Of a DNA stretch of 64,000 bases, positions 10,349 to 43,810 are shown one piece after another. A model generated the notes under the pieces. It was given only the letters and a program-made list of their open reading frames with translations. It was not told where the DNA came from and did not search any database. The translations under genes and the position numbers were made by a program. Within the stretch, counting starts at the first letter, position 1, and every line of letters starts with the position of its first letter. Origin of the DNA: Candidatus Andersenbacteria bacterium RIFCSPHIGHO2_02_FULL_46_16. Lineage in GTDB: Bacteria > Patescibacteriota > Andersenbacteria > UBA10190. The stretch spans positions 1,017 through 65,016 of the forward strand of contig MHHQ01000015.1 of assembly GCA_001817065.1 (NCBI GenBank). Direction: 5' to 3'.

Positions 10349-10483
10349 GTAACTGCTCACTGGTCTAGGAAGACTATTGGCTAAGATAAGACGTTATAAT
10401 TTTTCACTTTTAAGAAAACCTTCTTTTTCTGGCTCTAAATATGGCTTAACCTAGTAATCCACCCTTAACCTGTGAGCAGTTAC
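10349..10483. mobile_element. 135-bp MITE (copy 1) with 12-bp perfect TIRs gtaactgctcac/gtgagcagttac, flanked by 8-bp TSD ACGGGCAT
   Basis: Same 135-bp sequence (about 4 substitutions) recurs at 43384-43518; direct repeat acgggcat at 10341-10348 and 10484-10491. Confidence 0.75.
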
Positions 10484-10595
10484 ACGGGCATGGGTTGACA
10501 AAATGCTTGTGGTGTGATATATACTATACGTAGTGTTTTTAATGCTTGTTCGTTTCAATTTTGTTTCTTCGTACCTCAAGAAAGAGAGGGTCAAG

Positions 10596-11696
10596 ATGTC
10601 AGGCAAGAATTGGATTTTCGAAGTGCCGACGAACCATGGGAATGTATCGATTGCCGTCCATCCTGGGCCGCATACAGATGAGCTGCTAGCTATTATGATG
10701 ATTCAGAAAGCAGCAACGAGGCAGTTTGTGATGGATCATCAGGCAGAGACAATCGGATTGGGTGTGGAGGGTGGACCGTATGATGAACACCCGAACAACG
10801 GTAAGCCGAGAAAGGTCGGTGAATGCACGGCCACGTTAGTGGGTAAAGCGCTGGGAATTCATCAGGATCCGGTATGGGAGCGGATGCTCCGGTTCGCTTA
10901 CTGGGTAGACCAAGGTGAACCCATGCCTAGAGTGGATGACGGGGAAGGATCTTTTCCGGAGGAATGGAACCATCCCTTCGACATCAACAACTTGTTCAAG
11001 TGTCATTGGCGGCGTTTGAGCAAAGGGAAAAAGGAGGTGCCAGTAGAGAAGGGGCTTGAGTATGTGACGTGGGCGTTGGAAATTCTCGATAATTTCTGGG
11101 CACAGCAAAGGGACTTCATTGCAGCCGAGGAGGAGATTAGGAAGAATTCAGAAACGAGGACTATGATGCATAAAGGAAGACCTTTGGATGTCATGTTGAT
11201 TCGGTCTGATAACCCGGAAATCAACGCAGCAGCGCGATACTTCTTCAGGGCGGGGCTCGTGATAATTCGCCATAGCCTGGGGCATGTCCGCATTTTCCGC
11301 AACAAGCAGAACGGAGTCGGATTGGATGACCTGATGAAGCTAATTACGATCCGAGAGTGCGAATTACGGGGAGAGCCGTATACCGGGAGATGGGATGAAC
11401 TGAAGAATGAAGGAGAAGGACCGGGCGGGATCTGGTATTACTTTAGACAGCACGGAATGTTGTTGAATGGGTCTGAACAGCACGAGAAACCGTCAACGGT
11501 CATCAATGATGATGAGTTGCTGAGACTGGTAGCAACGGCGTTAGACACAGACTTGTTTCACCCGCCGTTAGAGGACACGTGTAAAAAAGGATCATGTCGT
11601 CATTCCCGAACAACGCCGTGCCCGTTGTACCAGTACGGATTGGGTCGTTGTCAGAAAGTGAGGTACGACGAAGCCAGGAACCGGATTTCTGGTTAA
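10596..11696 (+). CDS. Hypothetical protein, possible MYG1/UPF0160-like metal-dependent hydrolase (weak)
   Basis: RBS AAGAAAGAGAGGG before ATG 10596; N-terminal VHPGPHTDELLAI resembles the GTHxGxFHxDEALA motif of MYG1-family hydrolases; C-terminal Cys cluster; GC content higher than surroundings. Confidence 0.4.
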   Translation: MSGKNWIFEVPTNHGNVSIAVHPGPHTDELLAIMMIQKAATRQFVMDHQAETIGLGVEGGPYDEHPNNGKPRKVGECTATLVGKALGIHQDPVWERMLRFAYWVDQGEPMPRVDDGEGSFPEEWNHPFDINNLFKCHWRRLSKGKKEVPVEKGLEYVTWALEILDNFWAQQRDFIAAEEEIRKNSETRTMMHKGRPLDVMLIRSDNPEINAAARYFFRAGLVIIRHSLGHVRIFRNKQNGVGLDDLMKLITIRECELRGEPYTGRWDELKNEGEGPGGIWYYFRQHGMLLNGSEQHEKPSTVINDDELLRLVATALDTDLFHPPLEDTCKKGSCRHSRTTPCPLYQYGLGRCQKVRYDEARNRISG

Positions 11697-11715
11697 GTAA
11701 ATGAAAACGACTACA

Positions 11716-11760
11716 CCCCTTGGGAAAAAGTACGAAGCTTTTCCTAGGGGGTTTTTCTTT
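11716..11760 (+). terminator. Rho-independent terminator
   Basis: ccccttgggaaaa...ttttcctagggg hairpin followed by gtttttcttt. Confidence 0.6.
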
Positions 11761-11792
11761 AGGCGGAGGTATAATACAGTAGAATATTGAGT

Positions 11793-13526
11793 ATGTTGAA
11801 TTTAAATAAAGAAATTCGGAGCGACATTGAGGAAGGCATAAAGACAGCCATTGCAGCTGGTGCTTTGGCGTCGACGGCTGATAAGACGAACGTAGTGGTG
11901 GAAGCCTCTTCGGAAAAAGGAGGAGGAAAGCTACAAGAGGCAGAAACTCATCGGGGAGACTATGCGTCGGCGGTGGCTCTGGCGATGACTAAGCAGGTAG
12001 GAAAGCCGCCGATGGAGATTGTAAAAATAATTGCCGAGCATATGCCGAAGAAGGAATACATCGGACGGATGAAAGCGGCTGCACCTGGATATTTAAATAT
12101 TTGGCTTAATCCGGGATGGATGACAGCGCGATTAAATAATTTAATTCAGGATAACGTATGCGATACGGTTAAGGCGGGAGAGGGGAAGAGTGTTAACTTG
12201 GAGTTTATTTCTGCCAACCCGACCGGACCGCTGACTTTGGGCAACGTACGTTCGGCCTTTAGTGTGGATACTTTAGGTAAAGTGCTTGAATGTGCCGGAT
12301 TTAATGTGACGCGGGAGTATTATTTTAATGACACGGGTGCACAAGTAAAGAAACTGGGTGAGTCGGTGGTCCGAAGGGTACTGCAACAAAAGGGCGAGAC
12401 GGTTGATTATGGAGACGAGTTATATCAGGGCGATTATATTAATGAATTAGGGCGGGAAATAGCGGAGGGGCTGAAGGAAAATGAAAACAAGGAACTATTT
12501 CAAGCAGACCTAGTGGACAGCCAGATGATCGAGCGCGTGGGGGGACTTGCTGCTACGCGGCTGACGGCCGATATAAAAAAGATGATAGCGGAGGACATGA
12601 GAATTGAGTTTGATGTTTGGACGTCCGAAGATGATTTGCGGCAGAAAGGGAAAGTAGCTGCGGTGATTGAAAAACTGAAGGCAAGCGACAAAGTATATAA
12701 GAAAGATGGCGCTTGGTACTTGAAAACTACTGCTTACGGTGACAGTGAGGATCGGGTGGTGATAAAAAGTGACGGTGAGTATGCATATATCGCGCCAGAT
12801 ATTGCTTATCATCAAGATAAATACGATCGGGGATTTGATGAGATTTTTACCTTCGTCGGGGCAGACCATCAAGGGCATCTGCCAAAGGTAAAAGCGGCGA
12901 TGGAGGCATTAGGCAATGACGTGACTAAGCTACACCAAATAACTTGCCAGTGGATGAGGATGACCAAGGACGGCCAACAGGTGAAATTGTCGAAGAGATT
13001 AGGACAAATTGTGACACCCAAAGACCTGATTGACGAAGTGGGCTACGATGCGATGCGTTTTTTTATGGTTCAGCATGCGTTGAACACGCATATGGATTTT
13101 GATATTGGCATTGCCAAGGAAAGAAGTGAAAGAAATCCGGTGTATTACGTCCAATATGCCTATGTGAGATTGCAGTCAATTTTGCGGCAGGCAAAAGAGA
13201 GGGGCGTCATTAATGAAGTAGGCGAGGTGTTTGAATTATCCAATAGTCCGGCCTTAACTCACGTGCAGGAGCTGAACTTGATACGGCAACTATATCGATT
13301 GCCGGAGGTTATCGCGGGGGTAGCAGAGCGGTTTGAGGTACATGATTTGCCTTACTTTGCCATGGAGTTAGCGAAGGCCATACATGTATTTTATAAACAC
13401 GTGCCGGTATTGGCGGGAGAAAACCAGGAGTTGATTAAGAATCGATTACAGTTGGTGTTGGCTGCTCGAGAAGTAATGGGAAAGACATTGGATTTGATTG
13501 GGGTTAGCAAGCCGGATGTGATGTAG
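11793..13526 (+). CDS. argS: Arginyl-tRNA synthetase
   Basis: ANPTGPL..., DIAYHQDKYDRGFDEIFTFVGADHQGH and the C-terminal anticodon-binding region are ArgRS-typical; TATAAT at 11770 (near-leaderless); ORF track frame from 11787 (TTG). Confidence 0.9.
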   Translation: MLNLNKEIRSDIEEGIKTAIAAGALASTADKTNVVVEASSEKGGGKLQEAETHRGDYASAVALAMTKQVGKPPMEIVKIIAEHMPKKEYIGRMKAAAPGYLNIWLNPGWMTARLNNLIQDNVCDTVKAGEGKSVNLEFISANPTGPLTLGNVRSAFSVDTLGKVLECAGFNVTREYYFNDTGAQVKKLGESVVRRVLQQKGETVDYGDELYQGDYINELGREIAEGLKENENKELFQADLVDSQMIERVGGLAATRLTADIKKMIAEDMRIEFDVWTSEDDLRQKGKVAAVIEKLKASDKVYKKDGAWYLKTTAYGDSEDRVVIKSDGEYAYIAPDIAYHQDKYDRGFDEIFTFVGADHQGHLPKVKAAMEALGNDVTKLHQITCQWMRMTKDGQQVKLSKRLGQIVTPKDLIDEVGYDAMRFFMVQHALNTHMDFDIGIAKERSERNPVYYVQYAYVRLQSILRQAKERGVINEVGEVFELSNSPALTHVQELNLIRQLYRLPEVIAGVAERFEVHDLPYFAMELAKAIHVFYKHVPVLAGENQELIKNRLQLVLAAREVMGKTLDLIGVSKPDVM

Positions 13527-13994
13527 TCTGGTGGGGAATAATGAAGTCAATATACTTGTAGCTAGCGATATAAATGAGGTTTTTGTAAGTAAATTTATGA
13601 AGATAGAACAAGTTAGGCAAAGTCGTGAAACGACGAGCAGAACAAGGTGAAGCTATGCTAAGCGAGGTGAAGCCAACGATATTAGGTAATAGAGCGAAGC
13701 AAGTGGATTTCGTCTAACGTATCGCTATATCCGAAGTTCTGCGGAGCGTAGCGGAGCAAAATATGGGTGGAGGCTTTTGTATAAAAGCCGTAACCGGATA
13801 CTTGTTGTTAGCTGATGTATATGTTTTTCTCTAATTTAAGAGTTGGGCGATAGCCCAAAAAAGAAAAGGAATATTTCAGCTAACGTTTACGCATCATCTG
13901 AAGTTTTCATCCCGACTTAGCAGGATAAACTTTTTATTTCAGACTACGCTTTATTTAATTATCTCCGCCTAAATCTTCATCTAAACTAAGGGGT

Positions 13995-14065
13995 GAAAAT
14001 TTGGGTCGAGAAAAGTTTTCACTCCTTGTTAATTCTAATAATGAAAAATTTTGGAGCCAGATATG
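13995..14065. repeat. Island repeat module A (AAATTTGGG + covarying hairpin + CCAGATATG)
   Basis: Homologous to modules at 14816-14890 and 17204-17280; interrupted at its 3' end by the 172-bp GC-rich element. Confidence 0.6.
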
Positions 14066-14233
14066 GAAGTCACATTATGAAATGCCACAAATATAGTGAC
14101 GGGCCCTGTCGGCGCTGCACCCCCACCCGACGGCTTCGGCCTGCCAGGCGGGCAGCCTGCAGGCGCTCGGTGGGGGTCCCCCGCGCCGCCACCCGTTTAT
14201 TTAAGAGTGGCATTTCATAATGTGACATCTATA
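14062..14233. repeat. 172-bp GC-rich palindromic element, copy 1
   Basis: Identical except 1 nt to copies at 41665-41836 and 45464-45635; 20-bp perfect TIR gtcacattatgaaatgccac / gtggcatttcataatgtgac; ~75% GC core. Confidence 0.8.
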
Positions 14234-14274
14234 GTTGGTGTTGGGCGATGTTGGATTTCATTTTCCATTCCTTA

Positions 14275-14688
14275 TTATTGTATTTTAAATAAATCGCCGT
14301 TTAGTATAACTGGTTGCATTGCAAGAAGTTCGTCAGTATAAATCATCTCTGGAATATCATTTAATATGAAAATTGTTTTATTCAAACAGTGCGCAAAACC
14401 CATTTCCAAAAAAGAATTGCCCCCGATATAATTACGAATACCCTTTTTATCAATATTAACTATCAATACAGCATCAGCGTTTTTAATCTTCTCAAAATAA
14501 TCACGAATTAAATCATGTTCAATCTTGTTTTTGGTAGATTCGTGAGAAGATTCCTCGGCCAATACTTTTTCGGCATATTTCTTGGTGTGTTTCGGTAATA
14601 CAACTTCGTGATTATTTTGAAGCAATTCTTTTTTAGCGGCTAACATTTGAACAGCTGACGACATGCTTCCGCAAATAACAATTTTCAT
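14275..14688 (-). CDS. Nucleoside 2-deoxyribosyltransferase-like (NDT/SLOG-fold) protein
   Basis: MKIVICGSMS N-terminus and GGNSFLEMGFAHCLNKTIFILN resemble the NDT-family Gly-rich start and catalytic Glu segment. Confidence 0.5.
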   Translation of the reverse strand: MKIVICGSMSSAVQMLAAKKELLQNNHEVVLPKHTKKYAEKVLAEESSHESTKNKIEHDLIRDYFEKIKNADAVLIVNIDKKGIRNYIGGNSFLEMGFAHCLNKTIFILNDIPEMIYTDELLAMQPVILNGDLFKIQ

Positions 14689-14815
14689 ATTTTTCTGTGG
14701 CTAGGTGATTTATTTAAAATATTTTTATAAAGGGAAAATGGAAGCCAATTTCGCACAATGTTTCGGGATATCTGATGTTTCTGGCTCGATTCAATATAAA
14801 TGTAGAAAAGAGCCT

Positions 14816-14890
14816 GAAATATGGGTCGAAGAAATTTGACATACCTTATTTATTAAATGCGTCAAATTTCTGAGCTAGATATCCCGTGTT
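14816..14890. repeat. Island repeat module B
   Basis: AAATATGGGTCGAAGAAATTTGAC...GTCAAATTTCTGAGCTAGATATCCCGTGTT; hairpin stem AAATTTGAC/GTCAAATTT. Confidence 0.6.
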
Positions 14891-14938
14891 CTGCGACCCG
14901 AAGGGCTTGAGTCGCAAAAAAATTTATAATCGGCTTGG

Positions 14939-15481
14939 TCACTTCTTAATTTTAGTTTCAGGATACCTTACGATAACAGAAAAAATATCCCCTTTATCGT
15001 CCAGCTCATCAAGTCTAGTAAAAAGGTCCAAAACTATGTCATCAGTAATATCTTCTTTAAGCCGTATAATGAGCGCGCGATTGATTCCGAGTTGTTTATA
15101 TAAACTTTCCATCGCTTGAAATTTTCTCTCTTTATTTTTAACAACGGTATGCTTTCCGCTGGTTACATCCACTGCGTAGTTTTTGCCATGGAAGGTAAAC
15201 ATCATGTCAATGCCGAGCATACGATCCAATAAAATATCTTTCGGTAAATCAGATAGCTTTAGGCCTTCATCGCGCAACTTTTGCACCACCAGTTCATATC
15301 TCTGCGGAAAGCCCTGTTTGACCTGCTCTAAGATTTTTCCCTCGCCATCTTCAAGAGAGAAAATTTCAACGCCAAGATCGCGCGCGGCTTCAATCAGTTT
15401 GTGCATTCTTTGCTCTGCCAACATTGAAACTTCGTTTACATAGTTTGGGGATATTTTTTCTTGTTTTGGTGATTCAAACAT
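14939..15481 (-). CDS. Hypothetical protein (180 aa)
   Basis: ORF track; same orientation as the other island genes; no recognisable family. Confidence 0.45.
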   Translation of the reverse strand: MFESPKQEKISPNYVNEVSMLAEQRMHKLIEAARDLGVEIFSLEDGEGKILEQVKQGFPQRYELVVQKLRDEGLKLSDLPKDILLDRMLGIDMMFTFHGKNYAVDVTSGKHTVVKNKERKFQAMESLYKQLGINRALIIRLKEDITDDIVLDLFTRLDELDDKGDIFSVIVRYPETKIKK

Positions 15482-15855
15482 AGATTATAAATTTTTTGCT
15501 ATTTCCGATAAAGTCGTCGGTATATCTGAAGTTTACGACTAAAACTTTAGTTTTAGGAAGTAAATTTAAGATATACCGTGCTAGGCAAAGTCGCGAAACG
15601 ACGAGCAGAACACGGCGCAGCCGACGACTTTATGCAAAAGAGCGAAGCGATTTTGCATAACGTTTCAGAATATGCGATATTTGCCAGCGGTACAATATGC
15701 CCGAAGGGCGACCGCTGGCAAATATGGGTGTAGCGACCAGCGGGAGCGGAACCGCATATTCTGTGTTATACGCGCCGAAGGCCGAGCCAGAGTGCAACGT
15801 CCCGTAGCGAAGCGGAGGGCTGGCGAAGAGTCCGTCCCGCCCGACACTTCATCAC

Positions 15856-16350
15856 TTACTTTGTTTGCAAAAGGGCAGAAATTTTGTTTTCCAGATGGTC
15901 AATCCCGCCAAATTCTTTGACCGGAATTGATTTTATTTTGGCTCTCGTTTCAGGATTAACATGTGTAATTGTCATTTCTTCTGTTCCGCCGATACTTTCG
16001 CAATCATCTTCTATGAGTACATCTGGCATGACTCTCTCAGCTACATTTTTGTATTCTTCATCTCCGAGGCGGAATAGAAGTTGACCGTCTGGAAAATTGA
16101 ACTGTTTCAAAACCGCACGAACAGCTTCTATTTCATCTGACTTTCGACGTGATGTGAGATACAAAATTTCTGCCCCTTGGTTTTTCCACGAAGTCAATTT
16201 TTTCACTGCGCCACCGATTGGCACATATGAAGTATATTCCTTCACAGAAGGCTCTTTGGCTTTAACCTGTTGCACAATTTTCTCATGTGAATGCCCTACT
16301 GCGTTTTTGTGCATCGTTATTGTGCCTTCTGTGAATACCATGATTTTCAT
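15856..16350 (-). CDS. Hypothetical protein (about 164 aa, start MKIMVFTEGTI)
   Basis: ORF track 15856-16449; internal ATG at 16350 preferred; no recognisable family. Confidence 0.4.
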   Translation of the reverse strand: MKIMVFTEGTITMHKNAVGHSHEKIVQQVKAKEPSVKEYTSYVPIGGAVKKLTSWKNQGAEILYLTSRRKSDEIEAVRAVLKQFNFPDGQLLFRLGDEEYKNVAERVMPDVLIEDDCESIGGTEEMTITHVNPETRAKIKSIPVKEFGGIDHLENKISALLQTK

Positions 16351-16723
16351 AATAGCAGTGAAAAATTGATGTCCTTTATAAATTGTACCAATTAAGGGCG
16401 GGACGGATTGCGTATAACGTTCACCGATAAGCGAAGTTTTATTGAGCAAAGCGAAATAAAATTTGGGAAAATGCCGAGCCGAGGCATTTTCCGCTTATCG
16501 CGTTGTTAAACGACCCGAGCCCGCCTTTCCTTATTATAATATAAAATAATAAGGCGGGCAGAGCGCAGCGGGGCTTGAGTTTTGTTCAAAAATATATTCC
16601 TTATTAAATAAGCCCTTCTGAAATTTTTCGTCCGCGCTTGATTGACTTTTTGGTCACGATATGCTTAAGTGTACTATCCAGTCAACTTCGACTGGCAACG
16701 ACAATTAAAAGGAGGATAATGAT

Positions 16724-16972
16724 ATGCCATACGATCCGAGACCAGTAAGTGAGGGTGGCAACAGCGGTATCGACGAACGGTTTTCGCGAAAGGCTCCATC
16801 TGGAAAGTTCCGCGTCGTCATGGTTGACACATTTGACGGCACGGACTCTGTTGTCGGCGACTACACGCGCCGAGGCGCACAGAGGGTCGCCAAGAAAAAG
16901 GGTGGCGAAATGACCAAGATGTACGTTTACAACGACGAGGGTAAGTGCGTTGGGGAAACCGGAACTTTCTAG
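16724..16972 (+). CDS. Small hypothetical protein (82 aa), high-GC
   Basis: Perfect SD AAGGAGG 8 nt upstream of ATG; terminator hairpin 17005-17043 downstream; opposite strand to neighbouring island genes. Confidence 0.6.
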   Translation: MPYDPRPVSEGGNSGIDERFSRKAPSGKFRVVMVDTFDGTDSVVGDYTRRGAQRVAKKKGGEMTKMYVYNDEGKCVGETGTF

Positions 16973-17004
16973 TCGCAACTCATCATCAAGCCCAGTCGGC
17001 CATG

Positions 17005-17043
17005 GCCTGCTTGCATATGAATAATGTGGGCAGGTCTTTTTTT
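17005..17043 (+). terminator. Rho-independent terminator
   Basis: gcctgc...gcaggt stem followed by TTTTTTT. Confidence 0.5.
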
Positions 17044-17203
17044 GTAAAAATTTCAAAAGGGCTTAAATTTAAAATGAAAAAATATTTTTGAACAAAATTT
17101 CGTTTAACGTATCGGCATCATCTGAAGTTGCGCCCATTTTCAAAGGCTAAAACTTCAAATTTCCACCTATCATTATTATATCACCAAACTTTTATGTCAC
17201 GGC

Positions 17204-17280
17204 GCAATTTGGGAGAAGAAATTTTGCATGCCTTGATTTATAATTGTGCAAAATTTCTGAACCAGATATGCCGTGTTAGC
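17204..17280. repeat. Island repeat module C
   Basis: CAATTTGGGAGAAGAAATTTTGCA...TGCAAAATTTCTGAACCAGATATGCCGTGTT; 10-bp stem AAATTTTGCA/TGCAAAATTT. Confidence 0.6.
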
Positions 17281-17297
17281 TGATGTAAATTTAAAAA

Positions 17298-17585
17298 TTA
17301 TTTTTGAAACTTCCTTTGACAATCTATTGCAACTTTTATACATTCTTCCGGATCATACCCAAGGTCTTCACACCATCTTATCGTCGAAAATATAATATTA
17401 CCCAGTTCTTTTTTAAGTTCATCATCGGTATGCACACTTTTATCTTTTACAGCGTCACGTTCCCAGCGACAAATATCACCAAACACCTTGCCCATACGGA
17501 CAATGATTTGACTGAGGCTTAATTTCTGGTCGCCCCAAATATCGCGGCTTTGTTGCAATAGATTTTTTATTTCCATAGATTTCAA
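17298..17585 (-). CDS. MazG-like nucleotide pyrophosphohydrolase (small all-alpha NTP-PPase)
   Basis: 95 aa; ELKKELGNIIFSTIRWCEDLGYDPEECIKVAI resembles the MazG EXXE...ELGDxL...LgiD helix signature. Confidence 0.55.
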   Translation of the reverse strand: MKSMEIKNLLQQSRDIWGDQKLSLSQIIVRMGKVFGDICRWERDAVKDKSVHTDDELKKELGNIIFSTIRWCEDLGYDPEECIKVAIDCQRKFQK

Positions 17586-17673
17586 AAATAATTTTTAAAT
17601 TTATTTCAGCTAACTGGTTATTAAATGAACTTACGGATGTACTTTAGCATAATTTAGTATGTTATGCATACTT

Positions 17674-17682
17674 TTGATATAA
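17674..17682 (+). promoter_or_regulatory. Extended -10 element TGATATAAT for the recombinase gene
   Basis: TGaTATAAT lies 8 nt upstream of the GTG start at 17690, which would make the mRNA leaderless. Confidence 0.4.
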
Positions 17683-17689
17683 TAGTGAT

Positions 17690-18502
17690 GTGGAAAATGT
17701 TTTGGATAAAACCGAACGGATATTGCGATTGCGTAACTATAGTTCAAAGACTCGTAAAGCGTATTTGCTATATATAAAGGATTTTATCACGTTTTCCAAG
17801 AGAGTAGGTATTAGAAATAAACAAAAAGCAATTGAAGAGTTTTTACTTGATAAACATAAGCGAGGACAATCGCCGCAGACAATTAATCTTGCGTTGAATG
17901 CAGTGAAGTTTTTTTACCGCGAAGTATTAAAAGATCCGCAAAAAATAGATTTGAAAATGGCCAAGAGAAGTAAGAAATTGCCGGTTGTACTTTCACGCGC
18001 GGAAATTAAGAAGATTATTGATGGTACCAAGAACACAAAATATCGGTTAATGATTGCGCTGGGTTATGCCTGCGGTTTGCGAGTGAGCGAAGCGGTCAGT
18101 CTAAAAGTGCAGGATTTGGATATTGATGAATTGGTTGTCCACATAAAAAAAGGAAAGGGAAAAAAAGACAGAATTAGCGTATTACCGGAAAAATTGCAAA
18201 ACAATCTACGCAATTTAATAGCTGGTAAGAATAAAGGAGAATATGTTTTTAGTTCCAACCGTGGCGGACTCCTGACCACAACATCTTTACAAAAGATGTT
18301 TCGTCAAAGTTTGGCAAACGCGAGGATTAACAAGTTGGCAACTTTCCATTCATTGCGTCATTCTTTCGCGACGCACTTGCTGGAAAATGGCATCGATGTG
18401 CGCTACGTCCAAGAATTGCTTGGGCACGCCAATATCAGAACGACGCAAATATATACACGGGTGACAAATCCCGGGTTAAAGAAGATAAAAAGCCCGCTAT
18501 GA
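17690..18502 (+). CDS. Tyrosine site-specific recombinase (XerC/XerD-like integrase, 270 aa)
   Basis: C-terminal HSLRHSFATHLLENGIDVRYVQELLGHANIRTTQIYTRV carries the R..H..R..Y catalytic signature; N-terminal SAM-like core-binding domain; GTG start. Confidence 0.85.
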   Translation: MENVLDKTERILRLRNYSSKTRKAYLLYIKDFITFSKRVGIRNKQKAIEEFLLDKHKRGQSPQTINLALNAVKFFYREVLKDPQKIDLKMAKRSKKLPVVLSRAEIKKIIDGTKNTKYRLMIALGYACGLRVSEAVSLKVQDLDIDELVVHIKKGKGKKDRISVLPEKLQNNLRNLIAGKNKGEYVFSSNRGGLLTTTSLQKMFRQSLANARINKLATFHSLRHSFATHLLENGIDVRYVQELLGHANIRTTQIYTRVTNPGLKKIKSPL

Positions 18503-19327: not shown

Positions 19328-22300
19328 ATGTGGTTTCTTAATGATATGGTAAAGAAGAAACAAAAATTTGAGGATGTTCCGTCGAGGGTGAATGTTAGTG
19401 AGTTGGAGCAGGGAATTTTGCAGTATTGGGAGAAGGAAAATATTTTTAAAAAATCGTTGGATAACAATAAAGATAACCAACAGTTTACCTTCTATGATGG
19501 CCCGCCATACGCGACGGGCAAGCCGCACTATGGTCATATATTGCAGTCAACGATAAAGGACACTGTTTTGAGATACAAGACAATGAGGGGTTACTTTGTG
19601 CCAAGACGGGTCGGTTGGGACTGTCACGGTTTGCCGGTGGAGACCTTAGTGGAAAAGGAGATGGGGATCAAGTCTAAGAGGGATATTGAAGACAAAGTAG
19701 GGATTGAGCAGTTTAACAAAAGATGCCGCGATACAGTTTTTCGTTACATTGAGGATTTTACCAGTACTTTAAAGAGGATGGGCCGTTGGGCTGATTACGA
19801 CAATGCCTATGCGACATTGAACCGTGATTACATGGAAACGGAGTGGTGGGTGTTTAATAAACTGTGGGAACAAGGTTTGGTGTATCAGGCGTTTCGGTCG
19901 ACGCCATATTGCATCCGGTGCGCGACACCGTTATCGAATTTTGAAGTGACAATAAATTATCGAGACACCAGAGACACGGCAGTTTATATTATGTTGCCGG
20001 TGGTAAATGAAGATAATTTGTTTTTGTTAGTTTGGACCACCACACCATGGACGTTGCCGGGTAATGTGGCGGTCGCATTTAATCCGGATCCAAGTTTCAA
20101 ATATGTGATTGTCCGGGATGGGGAAAGGCAGTTGATTTTAGAGAAAAGCCGGGCAGTGGTGCTGTTTGGTGAGCAAGTTGAGGTGGTAAAGGAATTAACA
20201 GCGGCGGACATGGCAGATTTAGAGGGATATGAACCATTATATCCGGAGGTTTTGGAGAAAATGGAAAACTTGGATCGGGTGAAGATGTATAGACTAGTGA
20301 AGTCCGGTCATGTTGTTACAGACGAAGGTACAGGCTTAGTGCATATTGCTCCAGCTTTTGGGGAAGAAGATGCTGAGATTGGCAAAAAGCAAGGGCTGCC
20401 GACATTAAGGACGGTGGATACGGGCGGAAAGTTCACCGCGGATGTTGCCAAGTGGGCGGGCGAGAATATTTTTCAGGCGAATGAAAAAATTGTCACGGAC
20501 TTAGAAGAAAGACGGTTGTTGCTGAAGAGTGAGAAGTACCAGCACAGTTATCCTTTTTGTTGGCGCTGCGATACGCCGCTGATTTATTACGCCTTGGATA
20601 GCTGGTTTGTGAAAATTAATGGCAGCGGATTAAAGGAGCGAATGCTATCAGCAGCGGAGAAAATTGATTGGACACCGGAGCATATTAAGAAAGGCAGATT
20701 TTGGAAAGGGATTGAATCGGCGCCGGACTGGGCAGTGTCCCGTAACCGATACTGGAGTGTCCCAATGCCGGTGTGGCAGTGCGATCAATGCAATGAAAAA
20801 GTTTGCGTATCGAGTATTGAGCAGCTGAAGGATCTGTCGGGGGCGACGGAAGAACAAGTGGCTGATATCCATCGGCCATATGTTGATGACATTACGTGGT
20901 CTTGTTCGTGTCAGGGGACGTTGAAGCGCGTTGAAGAAGTGTTAGATGTTTGGTTTGATGCCGGATCAATGCCTTATGCCCAGCTGCATTTCCCGTTTGA
21001 AAATGAGCAGCAAGTGAAGAAGAGCTTTCCGGCTGACTTTATCGTTGAGGCGGTGGAGCAGACCAGGCTGTGGTTTTATGTTATGCACGTACTTGCGTTG
21101 GCACTGACGGATAAAAAAGTGAGCGGGCAGGTTGGTTTAGGGGAAGATAGTCCAGCCTTTTTGAGTGCGATTGGATCTGGTCTGATATTTGCGGAGGATG
21201 GGAGAAAGCTTTCTAAGAAGCTGAAGAATTATCCGGAGCCGGAACCAACGATAGAAAAATATGGGGCTGATGTGCTGAGATTGTATCTGTTGAGCAGTGC
21301 CAGTCTGGGGGAACCTTATCGATTCGCCGAGAAAGATTTAAGGCGAGTGCAAAGCAATACATATATGACGCTCTGGAATGTGTATAGCTTTTTTGTGCGG
21401 TATGCCAATACGCATAATTGGCAACCGAGCACGAAGGCTGGCGTATCAGCTAATGTTTTAGATGTCTGGATAACAACTCGGCTGAAGGAATTTAAAAGTG
21501 AAGTGATTGAGGCTACGGAGAAGTATCAGGTGGATAAGGCGGCGCGGAAGTTCATCCCATTCATTGATGACTTAAGTAATTGGTATGTACGCCGGTCACG
21601 GAATAGATTCCAAAGGCCGATTGATGCCAAGGAGAGAGATGAAACATTTGGGACTTTGTATGCAGTATTAGTTGAGGTAACCAAGATAATGGCACCTTAT
21701 ATGCCCTTTGTGTCAGAAGCGATGTATCGGAATTTAGTTAAGGCCGGTGAATCGGTTCATCTGGAAAAAATCGAGACGATTGGGGAACTGGGTGAGGCAG
21801 AGCAAAAAATACTGCTAGAAATGGCCAAGGCGCGGGAGGCGGTGGCTGTAGGCTTGGCTTTGCGAGCGAAGAAGGGGATTAAGGTACGACAACCTCTGCG
21901 CGCGTTGTTAGTGAAGGGGGAAGAAATGAAGGCTGATCTTCAAATAATGGTGTGTGATGAAATAAATGTTAAGGAAGTAAGGTTTGTTAAGGAGTTTGTT
22001 GATCATGAAGCATATGTTAAATCTGAGGAAGGTGGTGGCGTAGAAGCTATGCTGGATACGGAGATTACAGAAGATCTGAAATCGGAAGGCTTGGCTCGGG
22101 AAGTAGTCAGGCATGGTCAGGTGCTACGACGGGAGGCGGCTTATGCTTTGGATGATCGAATTGAGCTGATTTATGTGACTGATGATCGTGAACTGGACAA
22201 AGTGCTAGAAGATAATAGTGCCTATATTTTAGAAGCCTTACAGGCAGAAGAAGTAATACGAGAAAAAGCAGAAGCTGATGCAGGAAAAGATATTGAGATA

Positions 22301-22336
22301 AACGGGAAAAAGTTGTATTTGGGTGTGAGAAAATGA
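19328..22336 (+). CDS. ileS: Isoleucyl-tRNA synthetase
   Basis: PPYATGKPHYGHIL (HIGH motif), KLSKKLKN (KMSKS-like motif) and class I editing and anticodon-binding regions; true start may be ATG 19346 (MVKKKQKFEDV). Confidence 0.9.
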   Translation: MWFLNDMVKKKQKFEDVPSRVNVSELEQGILQYWEKENIFKKSLDNNKDNQQFTFYDGPPYATGKPHYGHILQSTIKDTVLRYKTMRGYFVPRRVGWDCHGLPVETLVEKEMGIKSKRDIEDKVGIEQFNKRCRDTVFRYIEDFTSTLKRMGRWADYDNAYATLNRDYMETEWWVFNKLWEQGLVYQAFRSTPYCIRCATPLSNFEVTINYRDTRDTAVYIMLPVVNEDNLFLLVWTTTPWTLPGNVAVAFNPDPSFKYVIVRDGERQLILEKSRAVVLFGEQVEVVKELTAADMADLEGYEPLYPEVLEKMENLDRVKMYRLVKSGHVVTDEGTGLVHIAPAFGEEDAEIGKKQGLPTLRTVDTGGKFTADVAKWAGENIFQANEKIVTDLEERRLLLKSEKYQHSYPFCWRCDTPLIYYALDSWFVKINGSGLKERMLSAAEKIDWTPEHIKKGRFWKGIESAPDWAVSRNRYWSVPMPVWQCDQCNEKVCVSSIEQLKDLSGATEEQVADIHRPYVDDITWSCSCQGTLKRVEEVLDVWFDAGSMPYAQLHFPFENEQQVKKSFPADFIVEAVEQTRLWFYVMHVLALALTDKKVSGQVGLGEDSPAFLSAIGSGLIFAEDGRKLSKKLKNYPEPEPTIEKYGADVLRLYLLSSASLGEPYRFAEKDLRRVQSNTYMTLWNVYSFFVRYANTHNWQPSTKAGVSANVLDVWITTRLKEFKSEVIEATEKYQVDKAARKFIPFIDDLSNWYVRRSRNRFQRPIDAKERDETFGTLYAVLVEVTKIMAPYMPFVSEAMYRNLVKAGESVHLEKIETIGELGEAEQKILLEMAKAREAVAVGLALRAKKGIKVRQPLRALLVKGEEMKADLQIMVCDEINVKEVRFVKEFVDHEAYVKSEEGGGVEAMLDTEITEDLKSEGLAREVVRHGQVLRREAAYALDDRIELIYVTDDRELDKVLEDNSAYILEALQAEEVIREKAEADAGKDIEINGKKLYLGVRK

Positions 22337-43235: not shown

Positions 43236-43810
43236 ATGCTGAAAGTGTTTTTAAGGTTTCGCGGGATTTCGGATGATGTCAAAACGATATTTGATAAGGA
43301 GGCACCCTTTAAGAAGATTATTGCAGAAATGCAAGGGATCAGCATGCCAACTATCACTTCTTCTGTTCGTATGGCTACTAAGGGTAACTGCTCACTGGTC
43401 GAGGAGGACTATTGGCTAAGATAAGACGTTATAATTTTTCACTTTTAAGAAAACCTTCTTTTTCTGGCTCTAAATATGGCTTAACCTAGTAATCCACCCT
43501 TAACCGGTGAGCAGTTACTACTAAGGAATGCTCTGAAAATATCCAGAGACTTGTAGCAGCGGAGGGTGAAGCTAAAGATGTTGAAATTGAAATTGATGAT
43601 GTATCAATGAATCTTTATGGAGACAGCGATTTTTCCTTTGAAGTCGTTGGTGATGGGATCTGGTTGACAATTGGGGGTGGTCTTAAGCTATTCTTTCAAG
43701 GTAAAAGTGCGGGTTATTTTACGGAGGCAATGACTGGAATCCTAGGAACCTTGAGTCGACTAAATCATGTCATTAGCGATTTCCCTTTTAATCCTAAGGA
43801 AGATGATTAG
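43236..43810 (+). pseudogene. Gene for an approx. 144-aa hypothetical protein split by a MITE insertion
   Basis: Strong SD AAGGGAGG before ATG 43236; removing the element (43384-43518) plus one copy of the TSD joins ORF 43236-43424 in frame to ORF 43607-43810. Confidence 0.7.
43384..43518. mobile_element. 135-bp MITE (copy 2), TIRs gtaactgctcac/gtgagcagttac, 8-bp TSD TACTAAGG
   Basis: TACTAAGG at 43376-43383 and 43519-43526; element is about 97% identical to copy 1 at 10349-10483. Confidence 0.8.

What the first reader, a model, noticed from the sequence alone, without database searches (positions are those of the whole stretch)
13601..15760. Two paralogous ~160-bp intergenic units sharing a 31-bp core that begins with an integron-like GTTAGGC/CTAGGC heptamer
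13613-13648 (GTTAGGCAAAGTCGTGAAACGACGAGCAGAACAAGG) and 15583-15618 (GCTAGGCAAAGTCGCGAAACGACGAGCAGAACACGG) are nearly identical and include the small hairpin GTCG-YGAAA-CGAC. Both are followed about 60-90 bp later by a conserved AGAGCGAAGC...YTAACGTWTC block and then the AAATATGGGTG motif. The second unit also has the inverted repeat aaagtcgtcgg (15512) ... ccgacgacttt (15628), which brackets about 105 bp. The YTAACG element recurs at 13716, 13865, 15656 and 17101, and also at 17624 in the recombinase upstream region. These look like the recombination-site portions of cassettes in the proposed array, one of which (13601-13990) carries no gene.
Basis: seen in the sequence. Interest (0 to 1): 0.55.

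Follow-up and report, generated by a model that had tools for sequence, protein, structure and literature searches.

The report
Empty cassettes of integron-like array
The two repeated ~160-bp stretches are gene-less "empty cassettes", made only of folded recombination-site DNA, inside a gene-capture array that looks like an integron but is paired with a recombinase lacking the domain that defines integron integrases; this points to an undescribed integron variant in candidate-phyla (CPR) bacteria.

Summary
The two units align over about 170 nt at 77% identity (score 50 against 2±1.5 for shuffles), and the 30-nt core is 29/30 identical and occurs only twice in the window.

The units lie in an island (13.5-17.7 kb) between ArgRS and IleRS. 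The island behaves like an integron: a divergent 270-aa tyrosine recombinase, an attI-like site, and eight cassettes on the minus strand separated by attC-like imperfect palindromes. Comparing strains puts cassette junctions exactly at G|TT boxes. A covariance model finds these sites only in the island here, and upstream of related recombinases in CPR and DPANN contigs.

Each unit is a cassette with almost no cargo. It has a hairpin A with loop GCTTCGCTC, then a three-way junction of stem B, hairpin X (the 31-mer) and hairpin C. The same architecture, kept by compensatory changes, occurs in at least five other lineages. Unit 2 is intact; unit 1, at the far end of the array, has decayed.

The GTTAGGC heptamer is an internal inverse-core box, not the crossover point. 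The system fails two integron criteria: the recombinase lacks the IntI-specific domain, and the sites lack canonical extrahelical bases. I rate it a new variant of a known kind.

The parts
17690..18502 (+). 270-aa tyrosine recombinase, divergent from the cassettes. It is IntI-like but lacks the IntI-specific insertion.
   Evidence: Pfam Phage_int_SAM_4 plus Phage_integrase. The best NCBIfam model is TIGR02249 integron integrase at 229 bits, below the 265 cut-off, in two stretches. The closest solved structure is VchIntIA 2A3V (E 2e-48), with IntI residues ~212-241 missing; XerA follows. Thousands of ~80% identical homologues occur in CPR lineages.
17602..17689 (-). attI-like region. The crossover box GTTAGCT is at 17614-17608, and a conserved TGCATAACATAC box is at 17668-17657.
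   Evidence: Homologous positions in other lineages read GCATAnAAACnA|GTTA. In ten contigs with an identical recombinase (P0037), the sequence is identical up to CCAGTT and is then followed by six different first cassettes.
17096..17281 (-). Regular attC-like site s6, ending cassette C1 (MazG-like ORF 17585-17298).
   Evidence: CM R1 59.5 bits. A 35-nt inverted repeat, I2, links the cassette's 5' end to its own R'' region.
16406..16511 (-). Regular attC-like site s5b, ending cassette C2. Its R' box GTTATAC is at 16418-16412.
   Evidence: CM R1 76.9 bits. Contigs L051 and L057 share the window sequence up to exactly this box and carry different upstream attC-like sites.
15649..15771 (-). Regular attC-like site s5, ending cassette C3 (ORF 16449-15856). 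Its R' box GTTATGC is at 15661-15655.
   Evidence: CM R1 81 bits. It folds end to end.
15513..15660 (-). Unit 2 = cassette C4, an intact cargo-less cassette. Hairpin A has arms 15660-15651 and 15639-15630 with loop TCGCTTCGCTC at 15650-15640. Stem B is 15629-15621 paired with 15520-15512. Hairpin X (the 31-mer) is 15615-15576. Hairpin C is 15575-15521. The 3' box CTTTATC is at 15513-15507.
   Evidence: MFE -32.5 (top) and -35.4 (bottom) kcal/mol, z -6.2 and -6.8 against dinucleotide shuffles. The same architecture occurs in L016, L074/L075 and L114/L115 with compensatory changes. There is no conserved ORF, no promoter-like site and no Rfam family.
14747..14894 (-). Regular attC-like site s3, ending cassette C5 (180-aa ORF 15481-14939).
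   Evidence: CM R1 68.8 bits.
13872..14075 (-). attC-like site s2, ending cassette C6 (137-aa ORF 14688-14275 plus a GC-rich palindrome at 14057-14238). Its R' box GTTAGCT is at 13884-13878.
   Evidence: CM R1 31.1 bits, E 1e-4. This site was not in the training set.
13718..13883 (-). Cassette C7: ORF-less, with ~64 nt of cargo plus the regular attC-like site s1 (13706-13813).
   Evidence: CM R1 80 bits for s1. Inverted repeat I20 links the cassette's 5' end to its own R'' region. No ORF of 40 aa or more.
13537..13717 (-). Unit 1 = cassette C8, a decayed paralogue of unit 2 at the distal end of the array, abutting the ArgRS stop codon (13526). It keeps the GCTTCGCTC motif (13700-13692) and the 31-mer (13612-13648) but has lost stems A, B and C.
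   Evidence: 77% identity to unit 2. MFE z only -0.9 / -1.2. Not detected by CM R1.

Best explanation
The two units are paralogous copies of a cargo-less, structure-only cassette in an integron-like gene-cassette array of a CPR (Patescibacteria-type) chromosome.

Read on the minus strand, the array is: attI (crossover G|TT at 17614), C1, C2, C3, unit 2, C5, C6, C7, unit 1, then the ArgRS stop codon.

Regular cassettes end in 95-190-nt imperfect palindromes. Their layout is R''(nnATAAC)-1 nt-L''...two inner hairpins joined by CCCAWATTT...L'-4 nt-R'(GTTAnnC).

A unit starts at such a G|TT box.
- Its first 10 nt pair with its own R'' box across an 11-22-nt loop (consensus CGCTTCGCTC). This is hairpin A, and the loop is all the 'cargo' it has.
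- The rest is a compound attC-type site. An 8-14-bp stem B closes a three-way junction.

Inferred mechanism: the divergently encoded 270-aa tyrosine recombinase exchanges strands at the G|TT of these boxes on folded single strands. The bottom strand (the window's plus strand) is the likely substrate. Units can therefore be excised, re-inserted and duplicated like any cassette, much as a MITE rides on a transposase.

Unit 2 is structurally intact. Unit 1, the oldest and most distal element, has decayed.

Shown: the repeats, the folds, the covariation, the junction positions in natural variants, and the absence of the IntI domain. Inferred: single-strand recombination, mobility of the units themselves, and any benefit to the host.
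For: System:
- GC skew drops from ~0.3 to ~0 across 14-18 kb.
- The recombinase is closest to IntI.
- The 15-site alignment A1 shows the L helix 89% paired, with 8 of 11 pairs changed on both sides. Overall pairing is 84.5%, against 21-41% when the partners are slid.
- CM R1, run over the whole window with filters off, hits only 13706-17281, all on the minus strand.
- R1 gives 41 + 11 hits in related loci. Nearly all are on the strand opposite the recombinase, including DPANN loci L026 and L082.

Junctions at G|TT in natural variants:
- Six different first cassettes follow an identical attI.
- L051 and L057 break against the window at ACGTT|ATAC.
- L114 and L115 break exactly after the unit's 3' box, CGCGCGCGTTAT|.

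Strand bias: the bottom strand is more stable in 15 of 15 sites, by 3.1 kcal/mol on average, as in canonical attC sites (PMC5027507).

Units:
- The same hairpin A plus three-way junction occurs in the window, L016, L074/L075 and L114/L115, with z from -5 to -9.
- Stems are kept by compensatory changes. Hairpin A: TTATGCAAAA/TTTTGCATAA, TTATCCAAAAT/ATTTTGGATAA, TTATTCAAAAT/ATTTTGAATAA. Stem B: AGTCGTCGG/CCGACGACT, TCGGCGGCGG/CCGCCGCCGA, GCGCGCGC/GCGCGCGC.
- Partial copies occur in L017 and L079.
- Position varies: first in L016, L017, L074/75 and L114/115; internal in the window and probably in L079, where a contig end cuts the unit; distal in the window, L075, L016 and L015.
- Two copies per array occur in the window, L075 and L016.
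Against: - I found no direct presence/absence polymorphism of a unit. All contigs of this population carry C3-unit 2-C5.
- The unit's 3' box is non-consensus in three of four intact copies: T|TT in the window and A|TT in L016 and L074, instead of G|TT.
- Cassette C5 starts at a box that is not complementary to its own R''.
- Regular-site model R1 scores unit 2 only weakly (13 bits, E 1.2) and misses unit 1.
- The conserved loop motif, the persistence over recombinases only 54-80% identical, and the frequent position next to attI or at the array end all suggest a function beyond passive hitch-hiking.
- No recombination has been demonstrated for this recombinase family.
Confidence: 0.72

Rival explanations
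1. The unit is not a free cassette but part of the integron platform. On this view it is the structured right-hand flank of attI, or a second attI-type landing site. Insertions at the first G|TT push it to the distal end of the array, or it stays next to attI when cassettes insert at its 3' box. Unit 1 would then be the original array terminus. Unit 2 would be the terminus or landing site of a second, later sub-array (attI-C1-C3 | unit 2-C5-C7 | unit 1).
For: - Units sit immediately after attI in four lineages: L016, L017, L074/L075 and L114/L115.
- Unit-type starts (GTTAnnCAAAAT-CGCTTCGC...) form the distal boundary in four arrays: window unit 1, L075 (cut by an IS remnant), L016 and L015.
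- L114 and L115 keep the unit next to attI while the cassettes after it differ, with the breakpoint exactly at the unit's 3' box.
- The architecture has persisted with compensatory changes, rather than showing the near-identity seen for shared mobile attC sites such as L014b and L016b.
Against: - Most arrays with a visible attI have an ordinary ORF cassette directly after G|TT and no unit: P0037, L110, L112, L013-15, L019, L034, L073 and L076-79.
- The L114/L115 array shows no unit at its distal end; a tRNA gene sits there instead. The L110 region I inspected shows none either, though I did not establish where that array ends.
- The L114/L115 difference can also be explained by ordinary attC x attC deletions.
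- Two copies in one array need a cassette-like duplication anyway.
Confidence: 0.2
2. The units are small structured RNA genes (a regulatory sRNA or cis-regulatory leader) carried as cassettes. The conserved hairpins would then be RNA structure.
For: The fold is strong and conserved, with compensatory changes. ORF-less integron cassettes with regulatory or promoter activity are known (PMC6557892). Unit 2 lies directly upstream of the 180-aa ORF.
Against: - No Rfam family matches, even at E <= 1.
- No promoter-like or terminator-like site lies in either unit.
- Both strands fold about equally well. The stems are built from the same R-box heptamers used as recombination boxes, which a DNA-level explanation predicts.
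- Unit 1 has lost the fold yet keeps sequence similarity.
Confidence: 0.05
3. The units are decayed remnants of a protein-coding cassette, keeping the 3' end of a lost gene plus its attC. Alternatively they are an unrelated repeat such as a MITE, an IS end or a tRNA fragment.
For: On the minus strand, unit 2 has a 25-codon ORF (ATG in GTTATGC to TAG in GCCTAGC). The two copies share the last 10 codons with two non-synonymous changes.
Against: - The ORF is interrupted in unit 1 and is absent from the homologous units of other lineages (own reading).
- There is no tRNA, no match in plasmids or phages, and no further copy in the window.
- The element has no terminal inverted repeats or target duplication. 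It occurs only inside arrays, bounded by R boxes.
Confidence: 0.03

Closest known systems
Sedentary chromosomal integrons (IntI / attI / attC cassette arrays, e.g. the Vibrio superintegron with VCR sites)
   Same: - A divergent tyrosine recombinase sits next to an insertion site whose junction is at G|TT.
- The array holds short, mostly co-oriented cassettes, each ending in an imperfect palindrome with RYYYAAC...GTTRRRY-type ends.
- The L arms covary.
- The R' outer bases belong to the next cassette.
- The attC family is homogeneous within the array.
- The bottom strand is more stable.
- Strains differ in cassette content.
   Different: - The recombinase is 270 aa and lacks the ~30-residue IntI-specific insertion that contacts the extrahelical bases.
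- The sites have no extrahelical bases on the L'' arm. Instead they have a fixed 1-nt versus 4-nt R/L spacer asymmetry on the other arm.
- The sites carry a conserved central CCCAWATTT motif between two inner hairpins.
- Hosts are CPR bacteria (and DPANN archaea). The recombinase is ~80% identical across CPR classes.
ORF-less integron gene cassettes (e.g. oral-metagenome ORF-less cassettes with promoter activity, PMC6557892)
   Same: A cassette bounded by recombination boxes, with its own attC-type site and no ORF. It occurs among ORF-bearing cassettes.
   Different: - The cargo is only an 11-22-nt conserved loop.
- The site is a compound three-way junction containing an extra inverted pair of core boxes (hairpin X).
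- No promoter-like sequence is present.
- The same architecture recurs in several lineages, often next to attI or at the array end.
XerA / 'Cand' Xer-related simple tyrosine recombinases, and Xer-dependent modules (dif, IMEX, pdif modules)
   Same: The recombinase has Xer-like length and domain layout and aligns full-length with XerA (4A8E, 5HXY). NCBIfam NF040815 names this family 'site-specific tyrosine recombinase/integron integrase'. Smyshlyaev et al. 2021 (PMC8138268) group CPR enzymes as Xer-related 'Cand'.
   Different: - The sites are not conserved 28-bp double-stranded dif-like sequences. They are 90-190-nt hairpins whose arms covary.
- The locus is not at a GC-skew switch.
- The modules are single-gene cassettes inserted next to the recombinase gene.
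Non-autonomous miniature elements (MITEs) relative to their autonomous transposons
   Same: By analogy only: an element reduced to the sequences recognised by the recombinase, carrying no gene, and duplicated within the array.
   Different: It depends on a tyrosine recombinase and site-specific exchange. It has no terminal inverted repeats or target-site duplication, and it is confined to cassette arrays.

Membership tests
Integron | Integrase of the IntI clade carrying the IntI-specific additional domain (the insertion around patch III that binds extrahelical bases) | tested here: not met
   TIGR02249 scores 229 bits, below the 265 cut-off, and matches in two stretches. The alignment to VchIntIA 2A3V skips its residues ~212-241. 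The protein is 270 aa, against 320-337 for IntI.
Integron | attI insertion site next to intI, with cassette junctions at G|TT | tested here: met
   Ten contigs with an identical recombinase diverge right after CCAGTT into six different cassettes. A conserved GCATAnAAACnA|GTTA lies 60-120 bp upstream of the gene in many lineages.
Integron | Cassettes ending in attC sites: imperfect palindromes with RYYYAAC / GTTRRRY ends, recognised by structure (covarying arms) | tested here: met
   Alignment A1: L helix 89% paired, with 8 of 11 pairs changed on both sides; the inner R pairs TAAC/GTTA are invariant. CM R1 hits cluster upstream of the recombinase. Junctions lie at the R' box.
Integron | Extrahelical bases on the L'' arm of the bottom strand and a 5-6-nt unpaired central spacer on both arms | tested here: not met
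   In 15 of 15 sites the spacer is 1 nt on the R''-L'' arm and 4 nt on the L'-R' arm. No bulged G or T is seen on the L'' arm. The canonical layout is taken from PMC5027507.
Integron | Bottom strand folds more stably than the top strand and is enriched in G | tested here: met
   The bottom strand is more stable in 15 of 15 sites (mean 3.1 kcal/mol). Top-strand GC skew is negative in 13 of 15.
Integron | Pc promoter driving promoterless cassettes; demonstrated recombination | not testable with these tools
   The consensus promoter scan is at chance level (14 found, 12 +/- 4 expected). No experimental data are available.
ORF-less gene cassette | Bounded by crossover boxes, with the cassette's 5' end complementary to its own R'' | tested here: met
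   Unit 2: 5' TTATGCAAAA pairs with TTTTGCATAA. The same holds in L016, L074 and L114. The L114/L115 breakpoint lies exactly at the unit's 3' box. The 3' box of unit 2 is non-consensus (CTTTATC).
ORF-less gene cassette | No conserved ORF | tested here: met
   The only ORF is 25 codons long in unit 2. It is interrupted in unit 1 and absent in other lineages.
ORF-less gene cassette | Moves as a unit (presence/absence or different neighbours) | tested here: inconclusive
   Across lineages the position is first, internal or distal, and three arrays hold two copies. Within this population every contig has the same neighbours.
Xer/dif-type modules (IMEX, pdif) | Conserved ~28-bp double-stranded site (two 11-bp arms plus a 6-8-bp centre), at the replication terminus for dif | tested here: not met
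   The sites are 90-190-nt hairpins with covarying arms. GC skew has the same sign on both sides of the island.
Known structured RNA family (Rfam) | Match to a curated covariance model | tested here: not met
   The only hit at gathering threshold is a tRNA at 50.4 kb. At E <= 1 the island gives only a chance miRNA hairpin match.

The most novel reading that the evidence does not exclude
CPR bacteria and DPANN archaea carry a distinct, undescribed class of integron. It would be run by a compact, highly conserved IntI/XerA-like recombinase that has no extrahelical-base-binding domain. It would act on attC sites with an inverted spacer asymmetry. In this class the 'units' would not be junk cassettes but a dedicated self-folding double core site: hairpin A plus stem B would form one R/L pair, and hairpin X plus hairpin C a second. 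That site would serve as landing pad, array terminus or pre-formed synapse. This could also explain why archaeal arrays show hundreds of attC sites but almost no recognisable IntI (6 IntI for 539 attC, PMC9668308).
Probability: 0.25. Interest if true: 0.85.

Novelty: new variant of a known kind. Interest (0 to 1): 0.62.

Why it matters
The IntI-specific domain and the extrahelical bases are treated as the defining, indispensable features of integron recombination, and integron-finding software requires them. Here a complete integron-like architecture works, judged by natural strain variation, with a recombinase that has neither the domain nor its DNA counterpart. It is widespread in the small-genome CPR/DPANN lineages, where such recombinases are currently filed as Xer-like.

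The two units add a second point. A cassette can be reduced to nothing but a folded recombination site and still persist for a long time, with compensatory evolution. That makes it a natural minimal substrate for working out what this recombinase recognises. It may also mark array ends or insertion points.

If confirmed, this would widen the definition of integrons. It would offer a simpler model for single-strand site recognition, and it would change how gene-capture capacity is annotated in uncultivated lineages.

Tried and rejected
- Exact search of the core (GCAAAGTCGNGAAACGACGAGCAGAA) in metagenome contigs: 0 hits. The core sequence is specific to this lineage; only the architecture is shared.
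- Apparent deletions in L004/L050 relative to the window turned out to be runs of N in a scaffold.
- Home-made hairpin and box scanners (in part, 73) gave counts at or near those of shuffled sequence. I used them only to pick seeds that were then checked by alignment and CM.
- MAFFT/RNAalifold on the four intact units recovers hairpin A and stem B but misaligns hairpins X and C. I therefore built no unit CM, and judged the architecture from individual folds.
- Coding hypothesis for the unit: rejected, because the 25-codon ORF is not conserved.
- Promoter cassette hypothesis: no consensus site in either unit.
- tRNA fragment, IS end, plasmid or phage element: none found.
- Group II intron (attC-targeting IIC) remnant: considered because of the GAAA-loop hairpin. 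There is no domain V-like sequence and no Rfam hit.
- Crossover at the central CCCAWATTT motif: two mosaic variants break there (L001 against the window at 16459; L060 at 15717). However, three independent comparisons place junctions at the R' box, and the mosaics can be allelic variants of the same site. I left this as unexplained.
- Xer/dif or IMEX reading of the island: rejected on site structure and GC skew.
Full report
**1. The observation**

The two stretches are real paralogues. The repeat finder reports colinear direct repeats:
- 13579-13600 / 15550-15571 (86%)
- 13600-13653 / 15568-15621 (83%)
- 13666-13700 / 15614-15648 (77%)

It also reports a four-copy AAATATGGGTG family and the inverted repeat 15495-15520 / 15621-15646.

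A global alignment of 13575-13780 with 15546-15741 gives 133/172 identical positions. Its score is 50.5, against 2.3 ± 1.5 for shuffles. The 30-nt core is 29/30 identical and has no third copy in the window, even with 8 mismatches allowed.

**2. The surroundings**

The units lie in an island between ArgRS (11787-13526, +) and IleRS (19328-22336, +). The otherwise strong GC skew (~0.3) drops to zero across the island.

At its right end is a 270-aa tyrosine recombinase (17690-18502, +). To the left are small ORFs, mostly on the minus strand: 17585-17298, 16449-15856, 15481-14939 and 14688-14275.

Evidence on the recombinase:
- It has the Phage_int_SAM_4 and Phage_integrase domains.
- Its best NCBIfam model is 'integron integrase' TIGR02249, but at 229 bits it is below the cut-off of 265, and the match is in two pieces.
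- Its closest solved relative is the Vibrio integron integrase 2A3V (E 2e-48). The alignment skips residues ~212-241 of that protein, which is the IntI-specific insertion. XerA structures come next and align full-length.
- Thousands of ~80% identical 270-aa homologues exist in contigs named Vogelbacteria, Paceibacterota, Kerfeldbacteria, Moraniibacteriota and others. Relatives at 37-43% identity occur in DPANN archaea.

**3. The island is a cassette array with junctions at G|TT**

Between the ORFs are 95-190-nt imperfect palindromes. Read on the minus strand, they share this layout: nnATAAC-A-L''(11 nt)-GGTTC-hairpin-CTCnCCCAWATTT-hairpin-AAACWT-L'-nAAC-GTTAnnCnAAAT.

An alignment of 15 such sites from nine lineages shows:
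- The L helix is 89% paired, with 8 of 11 pairs changed on both sides.
- The whole structure is 84.5% paired, against 21-41% when the partners are slid.
- The three outer pairs of the R helix are paired in only about half of the sites. This is what is expected if the last six bases of R' belong to the next cassette.

A covariance model built from this alignment was run over the whole 64-kb window without filters. It hits only 13706-17281, always on the minus strand. One hit is a site not used for training (13872-14075, E 1e-4). Unit 2's hairpin C region scores weakly (13 bits).

In related loci the model finds 41 + 11 sites. Nearly all lie on the strand opposite the recombinase and upstream of it, including in Nanoarchaeota-type loci.

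Natural variants give the junctions directly:
- Ten contigs with an identical recombinase (P0037) are identical up to ...AAAAACCAGTT. They then carry six different first cassettes.
- Contigs L051 and L057 share the window sequence up to the box ACGTT|ATAC at 16418-16412. Upstream of it they carry two other complete palindromes, each with its own matching arms.
- Genomes L114 and L115 differ by several cassettes near the recombinase and share the distal ones.

So the top strand is the window's minus strand. A cassette is [leader-ORF-palindrome], and the exchange point is the G|TT of the last box, as in integrons.

**4. What does not fit an integron**

- The recombinase lacks the additional domain. 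That domain is held to be necessary for integron function (Messier & Roy, cited in PMC9668308; PMC8138268).
[quoted passage not shown] Here all 15 sites have 1 nt between R'' and L'' and 4 nt between L' and R'. The extra bases are therefore on the arm that is cleaved, and there is no bulged G or T on the L'' arm.

Loss of the protein domain and loss of its DNA counterpart go together. One canonical property is kept: the bottom strand is more stable in 15 of 15 sites and is G-enriched.

I found no paper describing integrons or integron-like arrays in CPR bacteria. The archaeal integron paper reports canonical IntI domains, but only six IntI for 539 attC sites.

**5. What the two units are**

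On the minus strand the array reads:

| Element | Coordinates | Content |
|---|---|---|
| attI | G at 17614 | insertion site |
| C1 | to 17108 | MazG-like ORF |
| C2 | to 16418 | ORF on the opposite strand, with its own terminator |
| C3 | to 15661 | 197/152-aa ORF |
| C4 = unit 2 | 15660-15513 | cargo-less |
| C5 | – | 180-aa ORF |
| C6 | – | 137-aa ORF plus a GC-rich palindrome |
| C7 | 13883-13718 | ORF-less, 64-nt cargo |
| C8 = unit 1 | 13717-~13537 | cargo-less, decayed |

The ArgRS stop codon follows at 13526.

Unit 2 folds, on either strand, into two parts (z -6.2 and -6.8):
- Hairpin A: TTATGCAAAA / loop TCGCTTCGCTC / TTTTGCATAA.
- Directly after it, a three-way junction.

Hairpin X is the 31-mer. 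It is a small GTCG-loop-CGAC hairpin flanked by GTTCTGC and GCCTAGC.

Hairpin A is simply the cassette's own 5' end pairing with its own R'' box, as in C1 (35-nt repeat I2), C7 (I20), C2 and C3. The 'cargo' of the unit is therefore only the 11-nt loop.

- The AGAGCGAAGC block is this loop.
- The YTAACGTWTC block is the R' box of the neighbouring regular site.
- AAATATGGGTG is that site's central motif.
- The GTTAGGC heptamer is the inner R''-type box of hairpin X read on the other strand.

**6. The same element elsewhere**

Homologous units with the same architecture but different sequence occur in:
- L016 (9886-9726)
- L074 / L075 (7886-7700)
- L114 / L115 (8924-8754)

Their z scores range from -5 to -9. 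Cut or partial copies occur in L017, L079 and at L075 5754-5690. 25-30-nt starts of a unit occur at the distal ends of the L016 and L015 arrays.

The stems are kept by compensatory changes:

| Stem | Window | L016 | L114 |
|---|---|---|---|
| A | TTATGCAAAA/TTTTGCATAA | TTATCCAAAAT/ATTTTGGATAA | TTATTCAAAAT/ATTTTGAATAA |
| B | AGTCGTCGG/CCGACGACT | TCGGCGGCGG/CCGCCGCCGA | GCGCGCGC/GCGCGCGC |
| X | – | GTTATCC/GGATAAC | GTTATAC/GTATAAC |

For hairpin X, L074 has GTTAGGC/GCCTAAC. The loop keeps the motif CGCT(T/C)(C/G)C..CTC.

Position in the array varies:
- Units sit right after attI in four lineages.
- They are internal in the window and probably in L079, where a contig end cuts the unit.
- They are distal in the window, L075, L016 and L015.

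Three arrays hold two copies. L114 and L115 are identical through the unit and diverge exactly after its 3' box (CGCGCGCGTTAT|). That box therefore acts as a cassette junction in nature.

Unit 1 of the window has lost stems A, B and C (z about -1). It keeps 77% identity to unit 2, so it is a decaying copy at the oldest end of the array.

**7. Mechanism, and what is inferred**

Shown:
- the repeats
- the folds and their covariation
- the restriction of the sites to arrays next to this recombinase family
- junctions at G|TT in three independent natural comparisons
- absence of the IntI insertion and of canonical extrahelical bases

Inferred:
- The recombinase exchanges strands on folded bottom strands, as IntI does.
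- Units are excised and re-inserted like other cassettes.
- Units persist as minimal, 'selfish' substrates.

The main rival is that they are a platform element: the structured flank of attI, which ends up at the array terminus. The first/last-position pattern supports this. Against it, most arrays have no unit after attI, and the L114/L115 array shows none at its distal end.

I consider the other readings unlikely:
- RNA gene
- decayed coding cassette
- MITE, IS end or tRNA fragment

**8. Verdict**

The finding is real. Strict integron membership fails on two defining features.

- The units themselves are a new variant of the known ORF-less cassette.
- The system they belong to is a new variant of the integron.

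Its interest lies in showing a natural, apparently active integron-like architecture without the IntI domain, in CPR and DPANN lineages.

Noticed in passing
window 10349-10483 and 43384-43518: Two copies of a 135-bp element, 132/135 identical, with ~16-bp terminal inverted repeats (GTAACTGCTCACYGGT...ACCRGTGAGCAGTTAC). It is MITE-like and lies outside the island. The first copy sits just upstream of the 387-aa ORF 10533-11696, which has no Pfam match.
   Followed up: partly
window 14057-14238: A GC-rich (about 70%) long palindrome with AT-rich arms (GTCACATTATGAAATGCCAC...). It lies between the 137-aa ORF and attC-like site s2. Its outer arm overlaps the R''/L'' of s2, so it may be yet another ORF-less cassette fused to C6. 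Other assemblies of the same population (L043, L049, L053, L055, L058) lack 14159-14277.
   Followed up: partly
window 17463-17580: A 118-bp stretch inside the MazG-like first cassette is missing in some assemblies (L010, L043, L049, L053, L055). This removes the start of the ORF.
   Followed up: no
window 16466-16492 (minus strand) and the centre of every regular attC-like site: The first inner hairpin followed by CCCAWATTTT looks like an intrinsic terminator on the cassette strand. The terminator scan picks the copy at 16492-16466. The sites may therefore also terminate cassette transcripts.
   Followed up: no
window 16459 (against L001) and 15717 (against L060): Two strain variants share one half of an attC-like site with the window and differ in the other half. 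The break is at the central CCCAWATTT motif rather than at the R' box. This could reflect allelic variants, gene conversion or a second exchange point.
   Followed up: partly
window 16724-16972 (+) with terminator 17004-17036 (+): Cassette C2 carries its 82-aa ORF on the strand opposite to all other cassettes. The ORF is followed by a strong terminator-like hairpin (13-bp stem, T7).
   Followed up: no
window 15611-15605 and 14894-14888: The inner box GTTCTGC of the 31-mer is also present in unit 1 and in L017. It is the exact complement of the R'' box GCAGAAC of site s3, which ends the next cassette (C5). C5's nominal 5' end is not complementary to its own R''. The meaning is unclear.
   Followed up: no
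window 17100-17075; L014, L034, L063-L067, L076, L078: Many cassettes in different lineages, including marine and groundwater ones, begin with the same leader, GTTAnnCGMAATTCAAAAAATATTTTTC. This suggests a shared cassette pool or a conserved 5' signal.
   Followed up: no
L001 1-8800 against window 11000-16458: A contig with the identical recombinase and first two cassettes continues with an APH-type phosphotransferase cassette. It then has ThyX, thymidylate kinase, dCMP deaminase, NrdR and an intein-containing RNR instead of ArgRS. The array's distal flank therefore differs between strains, or the contig is chimeric.
   Followed up: no
window 17657-17668; the same box in P0037 loci, L072, L110, L114: A conserved TGCATAACATAC box lies about 45-55 nt upstream of the attI crossover in the ~80%-identity recombinase group. 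It contains an R''-type heptamer, so attI may itself be a degenerate attC-like site. In L016 the attI region is a clear 69-nt hairpin.
   Followed up: partly
loci: The recombinase gene very often lies within a few hundred bases of a contig end. This fits assembly breaks caused by strain-variable arrays.
   Followed up: no
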